Under the pieces are notes generated by a model that saw only the letters and a program-made list of their open reading frames with translations, ran no database searches and was not told where the DNA came from. A DNA stretch of 40,660 nucleotides, from UHGV virus genome UHGV-0383422, one strand, 5' to 3'. The stretch is from a virus. A program made the translations under genes and the position numbers. The stretch's first letter is position 1, and each line of letters begins with the position of its first letter. Below, piece after piece: positions 3,382 through 36,595 of the stretch.

Positions 3382-3662
3382 ACTTTCTCCTGTTTACTAT
3401 CTATAAGCCAGTCAATTATTGATGACTAAACCCGCATAGTAAACCATATATGAATCATTATTGTTCCATATCATATATCTCAATAAAAGTACTAATGATT
3501 TTACAGAACGAGCCAGCAGAGTGGGGGCAGTTGTACAGGAACCATAGACTTAATTTTGTATTTAATAATGCTATGGTGTAATAAACCTGAACATGTATTT
3601 AAAATACGTACTGATTCATGATAGAATTCAAAGATAACTTTTCACAAACTCCGTTTTTGATA

Positions 3663-3689
3663 CCCGCAAAATATTGCGGGCTTTTTTTT
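3663..3689 (+). terminator. intrinsic-terminator-like hairpin oriented for plus-strand transcription, at the tailspike 3' end
   Basis: Stem CCCGCAA/TTGCGGG followed by eight T on the plus strand; on the minus strand the hairpin is preceded, not followed, by the T/A run. Confidence 0.45.
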
Positions 3690-6600
3690 AACGTTCTTCC
3701 AGAGACTGAATCCGCTCTTTTATCTTATCCATTTCTCTGCGCTGCCATGCTGCCTCGATATAGAATAAGAGATCAGGTCTGACCCCCCATCTAGATCCTG
3801 CTGGCGTTATTTCAACGCGCTCAATGATGTCTTCCATTACCATCACTGGATTATCATCCTCATCAACAATGATGCTCCCGTCATTATCAGTCAGCGGCAT
3901 TTCCCTTTGGCCAGTAATGACGTCATCATATACTGCGGGATAATCGTCATAGCAAAGAAAGGCATAGCGGCATGTTGTGCTTTCTTCTTCCATGAGTCCG
4001 TGAGAAATAAGAACATCACGAAGTTGCTGCGCGATTACACCATGATGTATCCTCGCCCCTTCTTCCCCCTTTATAGCGACAGCGTTCAGCCATTTATAAG
4101 CGATATACCTGACGTCACCCCAGGCATCCAGCAATGCTTCGTCAGGAGAGACCGGCTCTGTCTTTAATGTTCCGTCACTGGTAACCACAGGATTGGAGCC
4201 AAGATAAACTGTCGAGAACCTGTTTCCCGGACCACCAAGAGCATTTACATTATCAAGATAAGGTTTAACATCTCCGTTCTCAAAAAGATGTTCGAGTGCG
4301 TTATATACCGCGCGACGTGGAGTACTGCTTCCGGAACCATGCAACGTTATCATTGCACCATCTGCTGAAGACGTTGTTTCACCGCCGCTAACGATTAATC
4401 TCTGAGCGGTAACATCATCAGACGGTACTTTCTTCGCAATAATGGCGTAATTACCCTCAAGTTTGACTTCCGCGCGAACTTGTCCTGATGTACCTGCATG
4501 GACAGTCAGTGACTGGACGGCAACATCATCTGTGAAATCAACGGGTACAGGAACCGTCCTCACGCCTGACGTCGACATAAAAGTAGGAAGCGTTCTGTTA
4601 GGAGTGGCTCCGTAGACAAAATCCCTTGAAACAAATTCTTCCTGTTTAATTTTCACCCTGAAACAATACAAATCAGCCGGGTGACCATCGTGAACATAAG
4701 GATATTTTCTGTTGTTATCCCCTATGCTCCATGGGTTTAGAAAGTCTTCCCCACCGAAAATGTAGTACAGCCAGTTGTCTTTGATACAAACTGAACCAAC
4801 ACCAACTGCAGAGTTAACTATTCCGCCCTGATAAATCTGATCAGTAACATTAACCCACTCTACATTATCCAGACTCCACTCATTGACGTTAACTCTGGTC
4901 ATAAATGTTCTTGGATAATTTCCTGCATAACGGTTATCAGGTTCTCCTCCTTCCCACTCACCAAATGCGCGCTCACTGCCAAAAATAATCAGCTCATCGC
5001 CAACTTTGGCAAAAGGAAGGTTTGAGTGATGAACATTATTTGGGAAGCGAAGAGAATTCCATGATGTACCTAAATCAGAGCTTCTGTGCAATGAACTACC
5101 GGGTTGAGTACTTAATGTCCCCCTGGTCGTCAGATACAGAATGCCATCATAATATTTTACACATGGCTCAGATGCATTCGCCTCATATTCTGCAGGTATG
5201 CGTCTGCGAACAAAGCTACCAGGAGAACCGAAAGCATCAGAGAAATAGAGTATCCCAAGCTCGCGTGGACCAATATCACCATTATGGTAGCCAACAGCAA
5301 AACTGTTATCGCTAATCGTCGCAAAACTGTGAATCTCAGTAACAGGAGTGCTTCCGTCAACAAAAGAAGGAATAGTTCCAAGACTGGTTTTTCTCCATGG
5401 TGACGAGTGAAATGATGTACCAAAACTCCAGTATCTACCCTCGTTATTCTGATCCACATCCTGGGTATTTTGCGTCGTAACTGTAAAAGTATTTTTATCA
5501 ATAACAGTAGTCACCGTCATATTCCCGGTAACACCTGTAACACCAGAGTTTGAGAAGTTGACAAAATCACCAGCAAATAATCCGTGATCAGTAATGCGAA
5601 TATAAGCGACTTGCTGATTTGCTGCTTTCGTTATACCACCATAAGCGCGAAGGCTGCGACTCATTGGGCGATCCCACAACTCTGCAACCTGCAGTTTATT
5701 TCCGCTCACGGTCCGCGTCTCAATTACAGCAAAAAGGCGATTTCTGACAACCCCCATACTCATGCAGTGATAGTTAACTGTGGGATAGTTTTCATGTAAA
5801 TCTGTAAGCCATTCCGGCGTTGTCCAGGTCTTCCCGTCATCTCCTGAGCGAACCCATGCAACATGGAGGTTATTTACACCATGGCGGTCTCCAGCCATAA
5901 AAGGCGCATAGATGACATTGTCATATACAAACGTTTTATCCTGCGTCCAGGCGTTGTACCACGGTGTATCTGTAATTTTAAATAACTCTCCCTGGATAAA
6001 ATCTTCAGAAGCATAAAAAAGAGGCTGGCCCGGTATTCTCTCAAATAAAAAACGAGCATTTTTAAATCGACTGACATCCGGAAGAGTTGATACTTTAAAA
6101 GTAAGCCCTAATCCGTCAATTTTATAACCTGGAGATGAGGCTTCAAGGCACGCGCTTATTGCAGTGGAATCGTCATTTATACCATCACCAACAGCTCCAA
6201 AATCTTTGGGGCTAATAGCATCACGCATTTTATCCTGGAACGTTCGGTACACAGCCCCAGAACCATACTGAATAAACCAACCAAAACCACCAACAACCCC
6301 GGCGATTGCAGCATCGACATAATTACGCATTGAGCGATTATTTACAGCGTCCTGCTCAAATGATGGATCTGCAAGGTTAGAAATTTTGTTTTGCTTTGCA
6401 TCGTAATATTTTGCAAGCAAAGATGGTTTCATCAATGCACGTCTGAACCACCCAAAACATTGCTGGATCAGCATCGTCAGGTAGTCAAAGGCATCTTCAT
6501 GCACTTCGGGGAAAAATTTTCCCTGATTGCGAAGGTCTGTCTCCTGCACTACATCAAGCACACGATCTATCGTAATTCGCCATCCAGTAGCAAGCGGAGA

Positions 6601-6807
6601 CGGAAGAACCACAGAACCGCCACTATAAGTGCCCGCCCCAGTTACCGTATAACCGGTATCCAGAACCAATTCTGTTACGTTTCCGTTCAGGTCAGACACC
6701 TGAACAACCAGGTCTGATTTTCTGAAAATTCGAAAAGTATACGGAAACGATGTCGTAACGCCGTTACCAGTGTATTCGTTGTGGTCAACTTCGGTTGAGA
6801 CCGTCAT
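3688..6807 (-). CDS. tailspike, endosialidase-like (endo-N-acetylneuraminidase) with C-terminal intramolecular chaperone domain
   Basis: 1039 aa; N-terminal particle-binding-like domain; sialidase Asp-boxes (SGDDGKTW, SSDLGTSW); C-terminal region (LGSNPVVTSDG...RIHHGVIAQQLRD...) resembles self-cleaving chaperone domains of endosialidase tailspikes (recollection, not searched). Confidence 0.8.
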   Translation of the reverse strand: MTVSTEVDHNEYTGNGVTTSFPYTFRIFRKSDLVVQVSDLNGNVTELVLDTGYTVTGAGTYSGGSVVLPSPLATGWRITIDRVLDVVQETDLRNQGKFFPEVHEDAFDYLTMLIQQCFGWFRRALMKPSLLAKYYDAKQNKISNLADPSFEQDAVNNRSMRNYVDAAIAGVVGGFGWFIQYGSGAVYRTFQDKMRDAISPKDFGAVGDGINDDSTAISACLEASSPGYKIDGLGLTFKVSTLPDVSRFKNARFLFERIPGQPLFYASEDFIQGELFKITDTPWYNAWTQDKTFVYDNVIYAPFMAGDRHGVNNLHVAWVRSGDDGKTWTTPEWLTDLHENYPTVNYHCMSMGVVRNRLFAVIETRTVSGNKLQVAELWDRPMSRSLRAYGGITKAANQQVAYIRITDHGLFAGDFVNFSNSGVTGVTGNMTVTTVIDKNTFTVTTQNTQDVDQNNEGRYWSFGTSFHSSPWRKTSLGTIPSFVDGSTPVTEIHSFATISDNSFAVGYHNGDIGPRELGILYFSDAFGSPGSFVRRRIPAEYEANASEPCVKYYDGILYLTTRGTLSTQPGSSLHRSSDLGTSWNSLRFPNNVHHSNLPFAKVGDELIIFGSERAFGEWEGGEPDNRYAGNYPRTFMTRVNVNEWSLDNVEWVNVTDQIYQGGIVNSAVGVGSVCIKDNWLYYIFGGEDFLNPWSIGDNNRKYPYVHDGHPADLYCFRVKIKQEEFVSRDFVYGATPNRTLPTFMSTSGVRTVPVPVDFTDDVAVQSLTVHAGTSGQVRAEVKLEGNYAIIAKKVPSDDVTAQRLIVSGGETTSSADGAMITLHGSGSSTPRRAVYNALEHLFENGDVKPYLDNVNALGGPGNRFSTVYLGSNPVVTSDGTLKTEPVSPDEALLDAWGDVRYIAYKWLNAVAIKGEEGARIHHGVIAQQLRDVLISHGLMEEESTTCRYAFLCYDDYPAVYDDVITGQREMPLTDNDGSIIVDEDDNPVMVMEDIIERVEITPAGSRWGVRPDLLFYIEAAWQRREMDKIKERIQSLEER

Positions 6808-6910: not shown

Positions 6911-6927
6911 ATTACCTTTCAGGTAAT
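6911..6927. promoter_or_regulatory. operator-like palindrome ATTACCT-TTC-AGGTAAT (perfect 7-3-7)
   Basis: In the divergent intergenic region between tailspike and the LexA-controlled gene. Confidence 0.5.
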
Positions 6928-6983: not shown

Positions 6984-7002
6984 ATTGCATGGAGAAGATA
7001 AG

Positions 7003-7260
7003 ATGCAGCAGTATCACTATCCACTGGAAGACGGATTTACCGAAAGGATTCACACGCCGGGAGGCGTCAGGTCACTGGTGGAGGGATCGCACTTGATGAA
7101 ATTACTCCGGGATCTCGATAAGGATGGATTTAATGTCGATGGCCCACTTGCCGAACTGACTGCACTGATTAACTACGTCACCAGCTCACAGATGTCTATG
7201 CAGGATCTGCAAACACATCTCGACTATTGTGCCGAACAATTACGAAAACAAACCCGGTAA
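7003..7260 (+). CDS. small SOS-controlled antirepressor-like protein
   Basis: 85 aa from ATG at 7003 with GGAGA Shine-Dalgarno; LexA box upstream; clearly homologous to the C-terminal approx 80 aa of the Bro-N protein at 8409-9119. Confidence 0.7.
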   Translation: MQQYHYPLEDGFTERIHTPGGVRSLVEGSHLMKLLRDLDKDGFNVDGPLAELTALINYVTSSQMSMQDLQTHLDYCAEQLRKQTR

Positions 7261-7266
7261 ATTTAA

Positions 7267-7284
7267 AGGCCGCAAGAGCGGCCT
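7267..7284. terminator. hairpin between convergent genes (possible bidirectional terminator)
   Basis: Stem AGGCCGC/GCGGCCT with AAGA loop; T-rich flanks on both sides. Confidence 0.45.
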
Positions 7285-8011
7285 ATCGTTTCGCTTTGTG
7301 CTCGTCCCAGCACGTTTTGCACCATGCCATTAAGCCGTCCGCATTTTGATTATTAGGGTAAAAGCTGGTCCGTTTTCTGCGGACATTACAAATTGGGCAC
7401 CACTTCATATGGCGTGTATTCTTTGGGCCATCGAGACACCTTGCACACCACTTAGTCAATCCATCTGGATTTTTTGACGATTTCCGGAATTTGTCATATG
7501 GAAGGTTTATTCTGCATCGCAAACACTGCTTGCGGCCACTTGAAACTCTGTTAGCTGATTCTTCTTTTGGCGGCGATACAGAAGGTATTCTTGCTGGCTC
7601 TGATACTGCCTGAGGTGCTTTTTTAGATGACTGAGACGATATGTCATCACCAGGGAATCTTCCATGATATGCCGGACGCATTGATACTCCAGGTGGAAGC
7701 TCAGCTGTAAACGGCTTTGGCTGAATCAGTTGCCTCTCTTTTGCTAACTCCTGCTGTTTACAATATGTCTGGATTACCGCACTATCATAAGCAGGAGGTG
7801 CGGAAATATTAGGCGCATTACCTCCAGTTTTTTGAAACTGAGTAGAGGTGTGTTCTATCACCTGTGTACGATTAATCGTTATCTCCCCATCTTCGGTCTT
7901 TATCGTTTTGTTATGATTAACGACCGTACGATCAGAGATCTTAGTCTTGTTCTGGTTGATAACGTAAATAATCACCGCAACCACACCAACAACTATCCAG
8001 AAAACTTCCAT
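7283..8011 (-). CDS. membrane-anchored protein with C-terminal tandem Cys4 zinc-ribbon repeats (function unknown)
   Basis: 242 aa; N-terminal transmembrane helix; two approx 30-aa repeats each CxxC...DGL..WC..C; GAGGAA Shine-Dalgarno. Confidence 0.65.
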   Translation of the reverse strand: MEVFWIVVGVVAVIIYVINQNKTKISDRTVVNHNKTIKTEDGEITINRTQVIEHTSTQFQKTGGNAPNISAPPAYDSAVIQTYCKQQELAKERQLIQPKPFTAELPPGVSMRPAYHGRFPGDDISSQSSKKAPQAVSEPARIPSVSPPKEESANRVSSGRKQCLRCRINLPYDKFRKSSKNPDGLTKWCARCLDGPKNTRHMKWCPICNVRRKRTSFYPNNQNADGLMAWCKTCWDEHKAKR

Positions 8012-8030
8012 TGCTTTTCCTCACAATAAC

Positions 8031-8047
8031 ATTACCTTAAAGGTAAT
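8031..8047. promoter_or_regulatory. operator-like palindrome ATTACCT-TAA-AGGTAAT (perfect)
   Basis: 20-36 bp upstream of the start codon of the 7283-8011 gene; a weaker copy ATTACCT-TTG-CGGTAAA lies at 8124-8140. Confidence 0.5.
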
Positions 8048-8408
8048 ATCTTGCTTTCAGGTGATCAAGCGTTAAACGCCACCAACCAAATACGGTTGAT
8101 TTTGATATTTCTCCGCGTTTATCATTACCTTTGCGGTAAATTTACATCGCACTCCTCTTGTGCCATAGTAATCGGGCACTGGCAAAATCCAGTGCCGGGA
8201 TTGGCGTCCCGGGTTACTAAGTGGCGCATACCACGCCAGACGTGGTTTTTTTATGCGTTAAGCACAGCTATATCCGAATTATGGTGGGCTGGGCAGGGGT
8301 CCGAAAGGACGCCGGTACCACTTAGGCCGGTACGCCAACCTTGTCCAGTTCACCACCAGTAATTGGCGTTGCGGTGGTGATTAAAATCACTAAGTGGAGA
8401 TAACCACC

Positions 8409-9119
8409 ATGGCTAATGCTCAAACTTCCATCTTCAAATTTGAATCTGTTAACCCTATCCGTTCCATCATTATCGATGGCCAACCATGGTTTGTAGCCCA
8501 AGACGTTTGTAGTGCGCTGCGTATCCAAAACGTCACCCAAGCACTTGAAAAACTGGATGATGATGAAAGGTCTATGTTCAACATAGGGCATGAACATCGT
8601 GCAATTTTTGACAGCCGAGTAAAAGAGATCAACATCATCTCCGAGTCAGGCCTCTACACACTGATCCTCCGCTGCCGCGACGCAGTGACACCAGGCACTA
8701 TCCCCTACCGCTTTCGTAAATGGGTTACGGGTGAGGTTCTTCCTCAGATCCGCCGCACCGGAAGCTACATTAAAAACTCGCTCCCGCAGGAAGAACGCAT
8801 AAAGATGGTTGCCGACCAGGTGGCCAACGCCACGGCGTCAGCAGTAATGCAGGCGATGAAGATAGAGAACAAAACCTACAGCGCCCCACTGAATCCCGGC
8901 TACCGCAGCCTGATTCATTCGCCGTCTGGTGTTCTCGGCCTGACGGAGAACTCACTGCTGATGAATCTGCTGAACCAGTTACAGGACGACGGGCACGACG
9001 TATCGGGCGCGGCGGCGGAGCTGACCACCATGTTCTGCTACATCGTCGGTGTGAGCAAATGCCTGCGTGATATCCAGACCCACGCGGAATACATCAACGA
9101 CAAGGCAGGGTTCTTCTGA
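8409..9119 (+). CDS. Bro-N domain antirepressor-like protein
   Basis: 236 aa from ATG at 8409 with GGAGA Shine-Dalgarno; N-terminal Bro-N/KilA-N-like region; C-terminal domain homologous to the 7003-7260 product. Confidence 0.7.
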   Translation: MANAQTSIFKFESVNPIRSIIIDGQPWFVAQDVCSALRIQNVTQALEKLDDDERSMFNIGHEHRAIFDSRVKEINIISESGLYTLILRCRDAVTPGTIPYRFRKWVTGEVLPQIRRTGSYIKNSLPQEERIKMVADQVANATASAVMQAMKIENKTYSAPLNPGYRSLIHSPSGVLGLTENSLLMNLLNQLQDDGHDVSGAAAELTTMFCYIVGVSKCLRDIQTHAEYINDKAGFF

Positions 9120-9190: not shown

Positions 9191-9207
9191 ATTACCTTAA
9201 AGGTAAA
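9191..9207. promoter_or_regulatory. operator-like palindrome ATTACCT-TAA-AGGTAAA
   Basis: Immediately upstream of the GGAGG Shine-Dalgarno and ATG (9219) of the 55-aa gene. Confidence 0.5.
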
Positions 9208-9218
9208 GGAGGCGCGAT

Positions 9219-9386
9219 ATGACAGCGTTGAAAAATCGTACTCAGCACAATGAACAAGCCAAGCAATGCTGGGATGTCATTGGAAAAGTTATGCTTGGCC
9301 GCGCAAGCAAAGAGCGCGACAAGGATATGGTTTACCAGACAGGAACATCTTTCAGCGACTTCAAGGCGGCATTTCGCTCCAAATAG
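9219..9386 (+). CDS. hypothetical small protein (55 aa)
   Basis: ATG with strong AAAGGAGG Shine-Dalgarno; hydrophilic; not in the supplied track (below 60 aa); overlaps the N-terminal extension of listed ORF 9266-9847, which I reject. Confidence 0.55.
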   Translation: MTALKNRTQHNEQAKQCWDVIGKVMLGRASKERDKDMVYQTGTSFSDFKAAFRSK

Positions 9387-9406
9387 AAGCACATCAGGAG
9401 TTTTCC

Positions 9407-9847
9407 TTGAAGTTTAACATTAGAATATCTAATAGTTTTCTACATGGGGAAAGCAACACCCCTTTCGCTGTAGACGGACCTTTCCTTACTGATGATGAAA
9501 TAAAAATCATACAAAGTTTTTTAGAGGATGTTGCCAATGGAAGGGCGCTTGTTGGAAAAAACAAGCCCTCGTGGGTTGATGATAACCATGATAAAATTCC
9601 CGGCTCAGACAATTATGAGCAAGAGAATTATTGGCATTATCATTGTGGGCCAACATGGTATCCAAACACATTTAAGAATTATACCATTAACTTAAATTTC
9701 AACCCTGGCGGAAGGCATTCTAATGAATGCATTCATTATGCAAAAAATGATAATGAAATTGTCATTGTTGGATTTTCAAGAGAACACATACCTTTCCTTT
9801 CATCAGATGGAAACAACAATCCGCTTTTTAATGATGAAGAAGAATAG
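9407..9847 (+). CDS. hypothetical protein, AT-rich accessory gene (about 146 aa)
   Basis: Same frame as listed ORF 9266-9847, but start placed at in-frame TTG 9407 six nt after AGGAG; no in-frame ATG in the AT-rich part; sharp drop in GC from about 9400; terminator follows. Confidence 0.5.
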   Translation: MKFNIRISNSFLHGESNTPFAVDGPFLTDDEIKIIQSFLEDVANGRALVGKNKPSWVDDNHDKIPGSDNYEQENYWHYHCGPTWYPNTFKNYTINLNFNPGGRHSNECIHYAKNDNEIVIVGFSREHIPFLSSDGNNNPLFNDEEE

Positions 9848-26367: not shown

Positions 26368-26384
26368 TATTACCTTTCAGGTAA
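26368..26384. promoter_or_regulatory. operator-like palindrome ATTACCT-TTC-AGGTAAC
   Basis: Dispersed motif family member, in the terminase-portal accessory island. Confidence 0.45.
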
Positions 26385-26706
26385 CCAAAGAGTTCATTCC
26401 GGTTACTAACCTGACTGGCTTGTCGTTAAATTGAACAGGTGGAGTGAGCTTTTATTTTGAGCAGTACGGCGTATGGCACATGCGCCGATAGCGGTCTGGA
26501 TACGTTTAAGGGGCACCCTCCCTTGCTCGGGCAAACGAACCAGGTAGCCGGAATGTGCAAGTCGAGCGGTTTTATTCCGCGCACGGGGATTCACCATCCC
26601 GGCGATTCGGTGTGACGCCTCGGAAGAGACGAGGGTACAACGATGAGAGCATTTATGGAGCCGCGACAAAGTGTGGCGCCTTAACAGGCTAAGTGCTCTC
26701 AGCGTT

Positions 26707-26783
26707 GTGGCATTAGCTCAGTTGGACAGAGCAACCGCCTTCTAAGCGGTTGGTCGCAGGTTCGAATCCTGCATGCCACGCCA
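26707..26783 (+). tRNA. tRNA-Arg (anticodon UCU)
   Basis: Folded by hand: acceptor GTGGCAT/ATGCCAC, D-arm GCTC/GAGC, anticodon stem ACCGC/GCGGT with loop CTTCTAA (anticodon TCT), T-arm GCAGG-TTCGAAT-CCTGC, discriminator G and CCA. Confidence 0.9.
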
Positions 26784-35625: not shown

Positions 35626-35856
35626 TCATGAGTAGAAGAAGTATGCCAGTTCTGCTTTTGAGCGCAGCCATTGTCTTGTTTTACAGGCTTTAAAAAGCCC
35701 ATTCATCAATACTTTACCTGGCATTTTGCGCTTGCCTGTTAAGTGAGTCTGGATATAGTGACTCGTCGTTCCGGCTTCCTGTGCGAAGGCTTCACGCTCA
35801 TCCGGAGTAAGTGCAAGCCAGTGCTTTTTGAAATCGAAATGTCCGTTATCGCTCAT
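35626..35856 (-). CDS. Cro-like HTH regulator
   Basis: 76 aa; HTH-like segment FAQEAGTTSHYIQTHLTGKRK; divergent from the CI-like gene across an operator cluster. Confidence 0.6.
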   Translation of the reverse strand: MSDNGHFDFKKHWLALTPDEREAFAQEAGTTSHYIQTHLTGKRKMPGKVLMNGLFKACKTRQWLRSKAELAYFFYS

Positions 35857-35891: not shown

Positions 35892-35956
35892 TTCACCCAT
35901 AAGGTAACAAAAATCAAGGATAGTTACCTATGAGGTGCATTTACCTGTTGGGTAAT
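35892..35956. promoter_or_regulatory. operator cluster: three palindromes of the ATTACCT-N3-AGGTAAT family at the cro/cI divergent region
   Basis: 35892-35908 TTCACCC-ATA-AGGTAAC; 35923-35939 GTTACCT-ATG-AGGTGCA; 35940-35956 TTTACCT-GTT-GGGTAAT. Confidence 0.6.
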
Positions 35957-36010: not shown

Positions 36011-36595
36011 ATGAAAAGTATCCAGGACGTCCGCAGGCAAAATCTCAACGACTTGATCGACCGTGAATTCAATGGTGTTCAGACGCGGATGGCAGAAAAA
36101 CTTGGAACTCAGGCAAATCTGGTAAACCGCTGGGCTCTTGGCAAGAAGGTTATCGGCGACCAGGTTGCACGAAAAATTGAAGCTGCCGCCAATAAACCCC
36201 GTAACTGGCTTGATATTGATCGTTCGCTTTCTCAGGAGGGTTTTCAGCCTGTCGGCCCGAGCGATATAGGTCAGCTGGCGGCTCACAACCTGGAACGCTG
36301 GATGAGCGAAAGCCGCGACCTTTCAACACAGGGAAAACTTCACCGCGCATCCGGCGTCGCCCAGGTGACAATCAGCCGCCTGTTAAACAATGAGGTCAGC
36401 GTTTCCATTTCCACCCTGGAGAATGTTGCATCCGCATTCGGGCGTCACGGATATGAACTACTGATTCACCCGCACGACCCTGCGACTATCAACTATGACC
36501 GCTCACGCTACGCATTGTTACCCGAAACCGAGAAAGCAAAGATCGAAAGTTACATTGAATTTGTCATCAACCAGAACGAAAAAAGCAAACAATAA
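36011..36595 (+). CDS. CI-like repressor candidate (HTH; no LexA-type self-cleavage domain evident)
   Basis: 194 aa; HTH-like segments; no Ser-Lys peptidase motif; divergent from cro-like gene; own terminator. Confidence 0.55.
   Translation: MKSIQDVRRQNLNDLIDREFNGVQTRMAEKLGTQANLVNRWALGKKVIGDQVARKIEAAANKPRNWLDIDRSLSQEGFQPVGPSDIGQLAAHNLERWMSESRDLSTQGKLHRASGVAQVTISRLLNNEVSVSISTLENVASAFGRHGYELLIHPHDPATINYDRSRYALLPETEKAKIESYIEFVINQNEKSKQ

What the first reader, a model, noticed from the sequence alone, without database searches (positions are those of the whole stretch)
7283..8011. Membrane-anchored protein with tandem Cys4 zinc-ribbon repeats in the tailspike-proximal accessory island
The 242-aa product has one N-terminal transmembrane helix, a low-complexity Pro/Ser linker, and two approx 30-residue repeats of the form CxxC-(approx 21)-WCxxC that each contain DGL. 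It sits where related phages often carry superinfection-exclusion or immunity genes, and its start is 20 bp from a perfect operator-like palindrome, suggesting lysogen-specific control. I do not recognise the repeat as a characterised family.
Basis: partly seen in the sequence, partly recalled or inferred. Interest (0 to 1): 0.5.

Follow-up and report, generated by a model that had tools for sequence, protein, structure and literature searches.

The report
Membrane-tethered twin zinc-finger prophage protein
This is a real, conserved but uncharacterised phage accessory gene: a protein pinned to the inside of the cell membrane that dangles two DNA-enzyme-type zinc fingers on a long flexible tether, wired to the phage repressor, and most likely used in phage-versus-phage conflict, though nothing here tests that function.

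Summary
Window 7283..8011 (minus strand) encodes a 242-aa protein with one N-terminal transmembrane helix, a conserved juxtamembrane hairpin, a variable linker of about 100 aa and two Cys4 repeats. The window is an epsilon15/phiV10-like (Uetakevirus) prophage.

The repeat is not unknown. It is the finger seen beside viral HNH/endonuclease VII nucleases and in Pfam Stc1, and its best solved match is the N-terminal zinc motif of PacI. What is uncharacterised is this architecture (PHROG 6762).

The palindrome is real. It is one of at least 11 copies of ATTACC-N5-GGTAAT, which by position is the operator of the phage CI-like repressor. The gene's -10 element lies inside it. The same geometry occurs in Serratia, Pectobacterium and Providencia relatives.

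In other phages the gene sits directly behind cI (Aeromonas phiARM81mr) or behind mnt, where P22 carries sieA.

My best reading is anti-phage exclusion or defence at the cytoplasmic membrane face (about 0.45), inferred and not shown. Interest is moderate.

The parts
7283..8011 (-). Complete ORF, 242 aa plus stop: membrane-tethered twin zinc-finger protein (PHROG 6762)
7952..8011 (-). Residues 1-20: N-terminal transmembrane anchor. Predicted N-out/C-in: Glu2 outside, K22/K24/R28 after the helix.
   Evidence: hydropathy, charges, 28 model helix 3-20, pLDDT 85-90; conserved F4, W5, G9
7844..7951 (-). Residues 21-56: conserved juxtamembrane segment (NQN.TK..DRTV...TIKTEDGEI.I.RTQV). Modelled as a beta-hairpin at low confidence.
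   Evidence: It is conserved even in distant members P0042, P0046, P0047 and P0054 and in phiARM81mr p22.
7544..7843 (-). Residues 57-156: variable Pro/Ala/Ser/Gln-rich tether, predicted disordered. Its length varies in the family (first finger starts at residue 120-163).
7421..7543 (-). Residues 157-197: zinc finger 1 (C163, C166, C189, C192), net charge +8
7286..7420 (-). Residues 198-242: zinc finger 2 (C205, C208, C231, C234), net charge +7
8019..8022 (-). Shine-Dalgarno GAGG, 7 nt before the ATG
   Evidence: read from sequence
8031..8047 (.). Perfect 8-1-8 palindrome ATTACCTTAAAGGTAAT: a copy of the dispersed repressor operator ATTACC-N5-GGTAAT
   Evidence: It is identical in the 93%-identical allele L012.
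8040..8068 (-). Predicted sigma-70 promoter TTGATC (8063-8068) - 17 nt - TACCTT (8040-8045). The -10 lies inside the operator.
   Evidence: Same geometry in Serratia (TTGAAC-17-TACCTT), Pectobacterium (TTGACA-16-TACCTT) and Providencia (TTGAAT-17-TAACCT). It falls below the threshold of the consensus scan.
7267..7284 (-). Intrinsic terminator hairpin AGGCCGC-TCTT-GCGGCCT followed by TTAAATTT, overlapping the stop codon
8124..8140 (.). Second operator copy (ATTACCTTTGCGGTAAA) in the shared divergent control region. It abuts the -35 of the isrK/C4/ant promoter and lies 93 bp centre to centre from the first operator.

Best explanation
The gene is a self-contained accessory ('moron') cassette: promoter plus operator, Shine-Dalgarno, ORF, terminator.

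Its product is a bitopic inner-membrane protein. Only two residues face the periplasm. A conserved hairpin sits under the membrane. A flexible tether of 60-100 residues holds a very basic pair of Cys4 zinc fingers in the cytoplasm.

I propose that it works in phage-versus-phage conflict at the cytoplasmic face of the membrane. The fingers are of the type that accompanies viral HNH nucleases and some helicases. I propose that they bind nucleic acid, or a DNA-delivery or DNA-bound protein, where foreign DNA enters. This would stop a superinfecting phage from establishing itself.

Two sub-modes are possible:
- A non-lethal block of entry or establishment (about 0.28).
- AbiP/PdpSau-like abortive infection, in which target binding makes the anchors perturb the membrane (about 0.17).

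In this phage, expression is gated by the CI-like repressor. The gene would be on immediately after infection or induction and throttled once the repressor accumulates.

Shown here: architecture, conservation, the family relation of the finger, the operator network, the promoter geometry and the genomic contexts.

Inferred: topology, zinc binding, nucleic-acid binding, the sign of regulation and the biological role.
For: Cassette structure.

Topology: the charge distribution favours C-in, and eight cysteines fit the reducing cytoplasm.

Finger domain:
- Confidently modelled (pLDDT 86).
- Net charge +15, pI 10.
- Conserved basic and aromatic residues: K161, R165, K174, F175, K180, W188, K203, R211, R212, Y218, W230, K232.

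Finger relatives are attached to nucleic-acid enzymes:
- PHROG endonuclease VII, HNH and primase families.
- BFVD fold hits to HNH endonucleases of phages and giant viruses.
- PacI and Hpy99I in the PDB.
- A superfamily-1 helicase (P0105) carrying the same finger pair at its C-terminus, and a ResIII/DEAD helicase.

Genomic contexts are those of exclusion and immunity genes:
- Between tailspike and ejection-protein genes in E. coli, Serratia, Providencia, Pectobacterium and Yersinia phages.
- 12 bp behind an mnt-like gene in a P22-like prophage, and behind an Arc/Mnt-like gene in another. groups sieA, orf59a and mnt on one P22 fragment.
- 18 bp behind cI in Aeromonas phage phiARM81mr.
- As an opposite-strand insert among siphovirus tail genes.
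- In a small island with recombinases.

Precedent: membrane-anchored nucleic-acid-binding defence proteins exist, namely AbiP and PdpSau (PMC10127798).

Fit: an exclusion or defence role suits both expression modes seen, with the repressor gene and early after infection.
Against: - No experiment exists. There is no match to any PADLOC or NCBIfam model, and the literature searches found nothing characterised.
- In this phage the promoter geometry predicts low expression in an established lysogen. That is unusual for prophage-encoded exclusion.
- The founding member of the finger's Pfam relative, Stc1, uses its tandem fingers for protein-protein contact with Ago1, not DNA (PMC2875855). Nucleic-acid binding is therefore not secure.
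- With two periplasmic residues the protein cannot touch a periplasmic injection conduit, which SieA is thought to do.
- Gene position in a variable island is weak evidence of function.
Confidence: 0.45

Rival explanations
1. Early function that benefits the phage. In this phage the protein would be made immediately after infection or induction. It would tether phage DNA or replication and recombination complexes to the membrane, as phi29 p16.7 does (my own knowledge). Alternatively it would neutralise a host nuclease or restriction activity.
For: - The -10 lies inside the repressor operator in four lineages, which places the gene in the derepressed early regulon together with int, ant and internal early promoters.
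- The finger pair is basic and of a type linked to DNA enzymes.
- There is a weak PHROG match to a family labelled 'Lar-like restriction alleviation' (E 1.3e-9).
Against: - Co-transcription behind cI and behind mnt means lysogenic expression in other phages. That makes little sense for a replication anchor.
- The gene is dispensable: phiV10 keeps only a 68-bp remnant and the TL-2011b copy lacks residues 1-18.
- Pfam gives no Lar_restr_allev match.
Confidence: 0.2
2. Protein-binding adaptor aimed at a host target. The fingers would act like LIM/Stc1 or RING-type modules and hold a host cytoplasmic protein at the membrane. Candidates are a divisome or protease component, or a sigma or transcription factor. 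This would be host takeover or modulation. The layout (anchor, charged segment, Pro/Gln-rich tether, globular head) resembles that of ZipA (my own knowledge).
For: - Sub-threshold Stc1 match in 20 of 26 members.
- The Stc1 fingers mediate Ago1 binding.
Against: - The closest sequence and fold relatives are nuclease and helicase accessories.
- No partner is indicated by conserved gene neighbours.
Confidence: 0.15
3. Modulator of the lysis-lysogeny switch. A membrane-tethered factor would sequester or stabilise a switch component (antirepressor, repressor, or a protease acting on them).
For: The gene is persistently embedded among switch genes:
- Divergent from isrK-C4-Bro-N ant here.
- Divergent from a KilA-N/ANT gene in Serratia.
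- Next to antirepressors in Pectobacterium.
- Behind mnt and behind cI.

It also shares a two-operator control region with the ant operon.
Against: - Exclusion genes occupy the same regions in other phages.
- The Providencia, siphovirus and island contexts lack an adjacent switch gene.
- phiV10, which lacks the gene, is a working temperate phage (PMC9782041).
Confidence: 0.1
4. Decayed remnant of a homing HNH endonuclease that kept only its accessory fingers and has no function.
For: The fingers are typical of HNH and endonuclease VII N-termini.
Against: - The full architecture, including the anchor and hairpin, is conserved from E. coli to Aeromonas.
- The gene is intact in 129 of 129 E. coli genomes that carry it.
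- dN/dS is 0.17 in the fingers.
- It has its own conserved promoter, operator and terminator.
Confidence: 0.02

Closest known systems
Pfam Stc1 domain (PF12898) and the accessory Cys4 fingers of viral HNH / endonuclease VII nucleases (solved example: N-terminal zinc motif of PacI, 3m7k/3ldy; also Hpy99I, 3fc3)
   Same: Same unit: CxxC, about 22 residues with a conserved F and DG, then CxxC at a helix start, often in tandem.
- Stc1 match E 3e-4, and matches in 20 of 26 family members.
- Multi-repeat relatives pass the Stc1 gathering score.
- 41 BFVD matches at E <= 1e-3, mostly HNH endonucleases.
   Different: - There is no nuclease domain. The His-Me catalytic motif is absent.
- The fingers are coupled to a membrane anchor and a tether, which none of those proteins has.
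- The window protein scores 21.6 bits against a cut-off of 24.8, so it is below Pfam's threshold.
AbiP (Lactococcus) and PdpSau (S. aureus prophages): membrane-anchored nucleic-acid-binding abortive-infection proteins
   Same: An N-terminal transmembrane anchor with a cytoplasmic putative nucleic-acid-binding head. PdpSau is encoded as a prophage accessory gene (PMC10127798).
   Different: - Their head is an OB-fold-like region, not zinc fingers.
- There is no sequence or fold relation.
- They occur in Gram-positive hosts.
- This is an analogy of architecture only.
P22 SieA superinfection exclusion protein
   Same: An inner-membrane protein of a short-tailed temperate phage. From my own knowledge of the P22 map, sieA lies between the ejection-protein genes and mnt/arc/ant. 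One homologue of the target lies 12 bp behind an mnt-like gene, ahead of ejection-protein genes.
   Different: - SieA has 162-164 aa with three predicted membrane spans and no zinc fingers.
- There is no sequence similarity.
- SieA is proposed to interfere with the periplasmic and membrane conduit, which a protein with two periplasmic residues cannot reach.
Genes transcribed with the repressor in lysogens (lambda cI-rexA-rexB arrangement)
   Same: In Aeromonas phage phiARM81mr the homologue follows cI by 18 bp on the same strand, with its own Shine-Dalgarno and no terminator.
   Different: - There is no homology to RexA or RexB.
- In the window the gene is not in the cI operon. It has its own repressor-occluded promoter.
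Phage P1 style of regulation: a repressor with many dispersed operators plus an immI region with C4 antisense RNA
   Same: - At least 11 operator copies are scattered at promoters across the genome, with the same layout in phiV10 and Pectobacterium.
- The neighbouring ant operon carries an Rfam C4 RNA.
   Different: - The operator here is a 17-bp palindrome.
- The repressor is a two-HTH Cro/C1-type protein, not P1 C1.
- The statements about P1 rest on my own knowledge.

Membership tests
PHROG 6762 (uncharacterised phage protein family) | Full-length match to the family profile | tested here: met
   E 1.9e-149, residues 1-242 on profile positions 1-242 of 242. The family has no known function.
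Pfam Stc1 domain (PF12898) | Score at or above Pfam's gathering threshold (24.8 bits) | tested here: not met
   21.6 bits, E 3.2e-4. Twenty of 26 family members match at E <= 0.01, best 1.2e-4. Multi-repeat relatives found with the family profile do pass, at 56-61 bits. I treat the protein as a distant relative, not a curated member.
Pfam Stc1 domain (PF12898) | Tandem Cys4 fingers (eight cysteines) forming one LIM-like unit | tested here: met
   Eight cysteines in two CxxC-22-CxxC units, invariant or nearly so. The pair is modelled with pLDDT 86.
HNH / His-Me finger nucleases (including endonuclease VII) | beta-beta-alpha-metal catalytic core with a conserved His and Asn/His metal ligands | tested here: not met
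   - No Pfam HNH or Endonuclease_7 match at E <= 10.
- PHROG matches cover only the N-terminal finger parts of those families, for example profile positions 45-95 of 271 and 8-52 of 142.
- The 86-residue C-terminal region is entirely taken up by the two fingers.
- N209 after the CxxC is not conserved.
Classical zinc ribbon (two beta-hairpin zinc knuckles) | Both CxxC motifs sit on beta-hairpin knuckles | tested here: inconclusive
P22 SieA-type exclusion proteins | Sequence homology to SieA; multi-span inner-membrane protein | tested here: not met
   No PHROG or Pfam match to any exclusion family. The protein has one hydrophobic segment only, against three spans in SieA.
P22 SieA-type exclusion proteins | Blocks DNA injection by related phages when expressed alone | not testable with these tools
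   Needs plating, potassium-efflux and DNA-entry assays.
AbiP / PdpSau membrane-anchored Abi proteins | N-terminal membrane anchor plus OB-fold-like nucleic-acid-binding region | tested here: not met
   The anchor is present, but the head is a zinc-finger pair and no OB fold appears in the model. The resemblance is one of architecture only.
Known anti-phage defence systems (PADLOC-DB 2.0) | Match to any defence protein model | tested here: not met
   0 families at E <= 1.
Repressor-controlled gene of this prophage | Operator identical in type to those flanking the repressor gene and overlapping the promoter | tested here: met
   - Operator copies cluster between the cro-like and cI-like genes (35893-35956) and downstream of cI (36652, 36714).
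- The copy at 8031-8047 contains the -10 of TTGATC-17-TACCTT.
- Binding and repression themselves are not testable here.

The most novel reading that the evidence does not exclude
The family is a new class of single-polypeptide exclusion or abortive-infection protein in Gram-negative prophages. It would act as a 'fishing line' that captures incoming phage DNA, or the cytoplasmic tip of the injection machinery, at the inner leaflet. It would do so with zinc fingers borrowed from homing endonucleases. In Uetakeviruses it would be fired as an immediate-early gene, because its promoter is occluded by the prophage repressor. The infected or induced cell would then be closed to competitors during the lytic cycle rather than during lysogeny.
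Probability: 0.2. Interest if true: 0.65.

Novelty: new variant of a known kind. Interest (0 to 1): 0.4.

Why it matters
The family is common. It is present in 2.4% of complete E. coli genomes. By my reading of the table, it forms roughly 30-40 clusters at 50% identity from Enterobacterales and Aeromonas. It is also a mobile cassette found in podoviruses, siphoviruses and small islands.

If it is an exclusion or abortive-infection protein, it would add a new mechanism type to Gram-negative prophage defence: a membrane-tethered zinc-finger head. It would also give a function to the widespread Stc1/HNH-accessory finger outside nucleases.

Independently of function, the locus shows that in epsilon15-like phages the accessory cassettes (this gene, antirepressor operons, toxin-like modules) each carry a copy of the repressor operator. 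That changes the default assumption that such island genes are expressed in lysogens.

Tried and rejected
- Full-length fold search against the PDB gave nothing (best E 1.6), because most of the chain is disordered. A model of the finger domain alone was needed.
- The sequence search of PDB chains gave only chance matches to ClC-2. The profile search gave PacI at a non-significant E of 0.24.
- The word-indexed homology search with the 88-residue finger domain returned no candidates.
- The afdb50 fold library was not available.
- PADLOC and NCBIfam gave no match.
- Literature searches for SF0880 and for membrane-anchored zinc-finger exclusion proteins found no characterised relative. The epsilon15 genome paper (PMC2698709) is not held.
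- I considered and rejected a cryptic HNH active site formed by C189/C192, H201, C205/C208 and N209. The spacing (8 and 3 residues) is too short for a beta-beta-alpha core, and N209 is not conserved.
- I considered and rejected a secreted or periplasmic zinc domain. There is no basic n-region and no signal-peptidase motif, the positive charges follow the helix, and Cys4 sites suit the cytoplasm.
- I considered whether the repressor might activate this promoter. The operator lies 19 nt from the ATG and covers the -10, with an optimal 17-nt spacer. Neither a lambda PRM-like nor a MerR-like geometry fits.
- I examined the phiV10 operator near oac to test the sign of regulation. The geometry there was not interpretable.
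Full report
**What is there**

Window 7283..8011 holds a 242-aa ORF on the minus strand. It has a GAGG Shine-Dalgarno 7 nt before the ATG. A GC-rich terminator hairpin at 7267-7284 overlaps the stop codon; it folds at -14.4 kcal/mol, z = -3.4.

The window is an epsilon15/phiV10-like (Uetakevirus) temperate phage. The closest records are Escherichia phages HEMP4, TL-2011b, phiv142-3 and phiV10. The gene map matches phiV10. The tailspike at 3688..6807 is an endosialidase.

The gene lies in the variable island between the tailspike and the ejection-protein genes. phiV10 keeps only a 68-bp remnant there. The TL-2011b copy lacks residues 1-18.

**The protein**

- Residues 1-19 are the only hydrophobic segment (Kyte-Doolittle mean 2.33).
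- Glu2 precedes the helix and K22, K24 and R28 follow it. The positive-inside rule therefore puts the C-terminus in the cytoplasm, which also suits eight zinc-binding cysteines. This topology is inferred.
- Residues 21-56 are conserved across the whole family. They are modelled as a beta-hairpin at low confidence.
- Residues 57-156 are a variable Pro/Ala/Ser/Gln-rich stretch predicted to be disordered. Linker length differs among homologues: the first finger starts anywhere from residue 120 to 163.
- Residues 157-242 carry two repeats, CxxC-22-CxxC. They align to each other with score 69 against 23 +/- 5 for shuffles.
- The finger pair has a net charge of +15 and pI 10.
- Modelled alone, the finger pair reaches mean pLDDT 86.

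**Is the gene real and conserved**

- Thirty-three homologues at 38-97% identity come from Escherichia, Superficieibacter, Enterobacter, Citrobacter, Salmonella, Serratia, Providencia, Pectobacterium and Buttiauxella. All are unnamed.
- The anchor, the hairpin and both fingers are conserved and the linker is not.
- The gene is present and full length in 129 of 5426 complete E. coli genomes, always on the chromosome. The two I inspected are in the same prophage slot.
- Against a 93%-identical allele, dN/dS is 0.31 overall and 0.17 in the fingers.
- An exhaustive profile search found 1693 proteins at E <= 1e-3. By my reading of the table, about 30-40 representatives at 50% identity share the whole architecture.
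- Distant members, including Aeromonas phage phiARM81mr p22 and Yersinia phages YeP4/5/6, keep the anchor, hairpin, linker and two fingers.

**What the repeat is**

It is not an unknown motif.

- Pfam gives a sub-threshold Stc1 match (21.6 bits against a cut-off of 24.8), repeated in 20 of 26 family members.
- Proteins with 4-10 tandem copies found by the family profile pass the Stc1 threshold.
- PHROG profiles for endonuclease VII, HNH endonucleases, a primase family and a family labelled Lar-like match the fingers through their own N-terminal finger regions.
- Foldseek against viral models gives 41 matches at E <= 1e-3. They are mostly HNH endonucleases of phages and giant viruses, plus phage proteins labelled 'Stc1 domain'.
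- The same finger pair ends a 1237-aa superfamily-1 helicase (P0105), and arrays of fingers occur in a ResIII/DEAD helicase protein.
- The protein itself has no nuclease core.
- In S. pombe Stc1 the tandem fingers mediate binding to Ago1 (PMC2875855).

A protein-binding role therefore cannot be excluded, although the company the finger keeps points to nucleic acid.

**The palindrome**

ATTACCTT-A-AAGGTAAT at 8031-8047 is real. It is one of a family.

- TTACCT-N3-AGGTAA occurs six times exactly, with none expected.
- ATTACC-N5-GGTAAT occurs at 12 sites with at most one mismatch.
- Three copies lie between the cro-like gene (35626..35856, minus strand) and the CI-like two-HTH repressor gene (36011..36595, plus strand). 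Two more bracket a TTGACA promoter just downstream of the repressor gene.
- This is the layout of lambdoid OR and OL. I therefore assign the motif to the repressor, and probably also to the Cro-like protein. This is an inference from position.
- Other copies lie upstream of the integrase gene, in the tailspike/gp19-like intergenic region, at the isrK/C4/ant promoter, before the toxin-like module, before a tRNA island and inside the replication operon.
- phiV10 has the same distribution. So does a Pectobacterium prophage with the variant TTTACC-N5-GGTAAA.

**Sign of the control**

On the minus strand the sequence reads TTGATC, 17 nt, then TACCTT. The TACCTT occupies positions 3-8 of the operator.

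The same geometry is found upstream of the homologues in three other genera, although the spacers are unrelated in sequence:

- Serratia: TTGAAC-17-TACCTT.
- Pectobacterium: TTGACA-16-TACCTT, inside an 11-bp-arm perfect palindrome.
- Providencia: TTGAAT-17-TAACCT, inside ATTAACC-N5-GGTTAAT.

A match of four or more positions to TTGACA at a fixed position has a background frequency of 4.1% in this window. Most other operator copies lack this geometry; one that shares it is the TTGACA-17-TACCTT promoter at 26369.

A protein bound there should occlude RNA polymerase. In this phage the gene is therefore predicted to be on when the repressor is absent (fresh infection, induction) and throttled in an established lysogen.

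It is a prediction. The promoter falls below the threshold of the consensus scanner, and nothing was measured.

**Contexts elsewhere**

- Serratia prophages: same slot, divergent from a KilA-N/ANT antirepressor.
- Providencia and an unassigned prophage: beside the tailspike.
- Pectobacterium: after two antirepressor genes and a HicAB pair.
- A P22-like metagenomic prophage: Ant and Arc on one strand, then Mnt, the target (12-bp gap) and a 287-aa ORF on the other, ahead of the ejection-protein genes.
- The P22 paper shows that sieA, orf59a and mnt were cloned together on one fragment. That sieA lies between mnt and the ejection-protein genes is from my own knowledge of the P22 map.
- Another prophage: an Mnt/Arc-like gene followed by the target.
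- A siphovirus: an opposite-strand insert among tail genes.
- Buttiauxella: a small island with recombinases and a CI-like repressor.
- Aeromonas phage phiARM81mr: 18 bp behind the cI gene on the same strand, with its own Shine-Dalgarno and no terminator. That is the place rexAB occupies in lambda (my own knowledge).

The cassette is thus always wired to the resident repressor system. In some phages it is co-transcribed with a repressor gene, and in others it is controlled by the repressor's operator.

**Most likely mechanism**

A role that makes sense both in lysogens and immediately after infection is exclusion of, or defence against, other phages. A replication anchor or a toxic takeover factor would be odd behind cI.

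The architecture most resembles AbiP and PdpSau. Those are membrane-anchored proteins with a cytoplasmic nucleic-acid-binding head that cause abortive infection (PMC10127798). The head here is a different fold.

The resemblance to SieA is positional only. SieA has three predicted spans and is proposed to interfere with the periplasmic and membrane conduit (PMC10883804), which a protein with two periplasmic residues cannot reach.

I therefore propose a membrane-tethered capture of incoming nucleic acid, or of a DNA-associated protein, at the inner leaflet. I give 0.45 to the general role, split into about 0.28 for a non-lethal block and 0.17 for abortive infection.

Rivals:

| Rival | Confidence |
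|---|---|
| Early function that benefits the phage | 0.20 |
| Host-protein adaptor | 0.15 |
| Modulator of the lysis-lysogeny switch | 0.10 |
| Non-functional remnant | 0.02 |

No defence database knows the family and no paper found describes it.

**Verdict**

The repeat is a known finger type in an uncharacterised architecture. The palindrome is a genuine repressor operator, but with the opposite predicted effect. The function remains inferred.

Novelty: a new variant of a known kind (membrane-anchored accessory or exclusion proteins). Interest is moderate, 0.4.

Noticed in passing
window 1308, 6911, 8031, 8124, 9191, 26369, 33597, 33659, 35893-35956, 36652, 36714: A dispersed regulon of 17-bp palindromic operators (ATTACC-N5-GGTAAT). 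They cluster around the CI-like repressor gene. Single copies sit in front of int, the ant operon, the toxin-like module, a tRNA island and an internal point of the replication operon. phiV10 (L011) and a Pectobacterium prophage (L014, variant TTTACC-N5-GGTAAA) have the same layout. I found no description of this in the papers available.
   Followed up: partly
window 8176-8252 (+) and 8277-8360 (+), upstream of 8394..9119 (+): Rfam isrK (67.7 bits) and C4 antisense RNA (66 bits) lie in tandem in the leader of a Bro-N antirepressor gene. A promoter TTTACA-17-CATAGT ends at 8169, and an intrinsic terminator at 8230-8246 lies inside the leader. This combines the Gifsy-1 IsrK and P1/P7 C4 types of immI control in a Uetakevirus. 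The 8116-8394 stretch is also conserved in Klebsiella and Enterobacter phages, where nothing is annotated.
   Followed up: partly
window 6985..7260 (+) versus 8394..9119 (+): The small gp19-like ORF next to the tailspike is 42% identical over 74 residues to the C-terminal part of the Bro-N antirepressor of the same phage (E 4e-15). Both match PHROG 450. It is a free-standing copy of an antirepressor C-terminal domain and has its own perfect operator at 6911-6927.
   Followed up: partly
window 36011..36595 (+): Pfam matches only HTH families in the CI-like repressor. The best HTH_3 and HTH_26 stretches lie at residues 104-147 and a weaker YdaS_toxin HTH-type match at 21-61. The phiV10 record notes two HTH motifs in its homologue. 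No S24 peptidase match was found. Induction may therefore go through the antirepressor rather than RecA-mediated cleavage. Not tested.
   Followed up: no
window 9191-9847 (+): An operator copy sits directly in front of a 55-aa ORF (9219..9386) that overlaps a 193-aa ORF (9266..9847). RefSeq names the homologues of the latter as YafO-family toxin. Neither Pfam nor PADLOC matches it here. Other E. coli prophages carry a DUF4760 gene in this position instead.
   Followed up: no
window 3688..6807 (-): The tailspike has a complete endosialidase set (End_N_terminal, End_beta_propel, End_beta_barrel, End_tail_spike, Peptidase_S74 chaperone). This suggests, by inference from the domain set, a K1-capsule-specific epsilon15-like prophage. 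E. coli blood isolate EC67 carries a 99.6%-identical copy of the target gene, next to an endosialidase-annotated tailspike ORF of the same length.
   Followed up: partly
window 26369-26783 (+): A consensus promoter TTGACA-17-TACCTT, with its -10 inside an operator copy, points at a tRNA-Arg(TCT) gene (26707-26783) in the island between the terminase and portal genes.
   Followed up: no
L018 (Yersinia phage YeP5) 1900-2634: The Yersinia homologue has a (Lys-Thr)n run of about nine repeats right after the membrane helix. Its annotated start lies 29 codons upstream of the conserved MEIFW start, so the annotated start is probably wrong.
   Followed up: no
L009, L016, L017, 80-105 nt upstream of the homologues: Three homologues outside the epsilon15-like group share an upstream motif with CTG-N9-CAG spacing, for example CTGATCATCTATCAG. 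It is one base short of a LexA box. It may be the operator of a different regulator. It remains unexplained.
   Followed up: no
L001 (TL-2011b) 3483-4571; L002/L011 (phiV10): The gene has decayed in two isolated phages. The TL-2011b copy matches only residues 19-242 and is annotated as a misc_feature. phiV10 retains a 68-bp remnant annotated as similar to Shigella flexneri SF0880. The gene is therefore dispensable for phage growth.
   Followed up: partly
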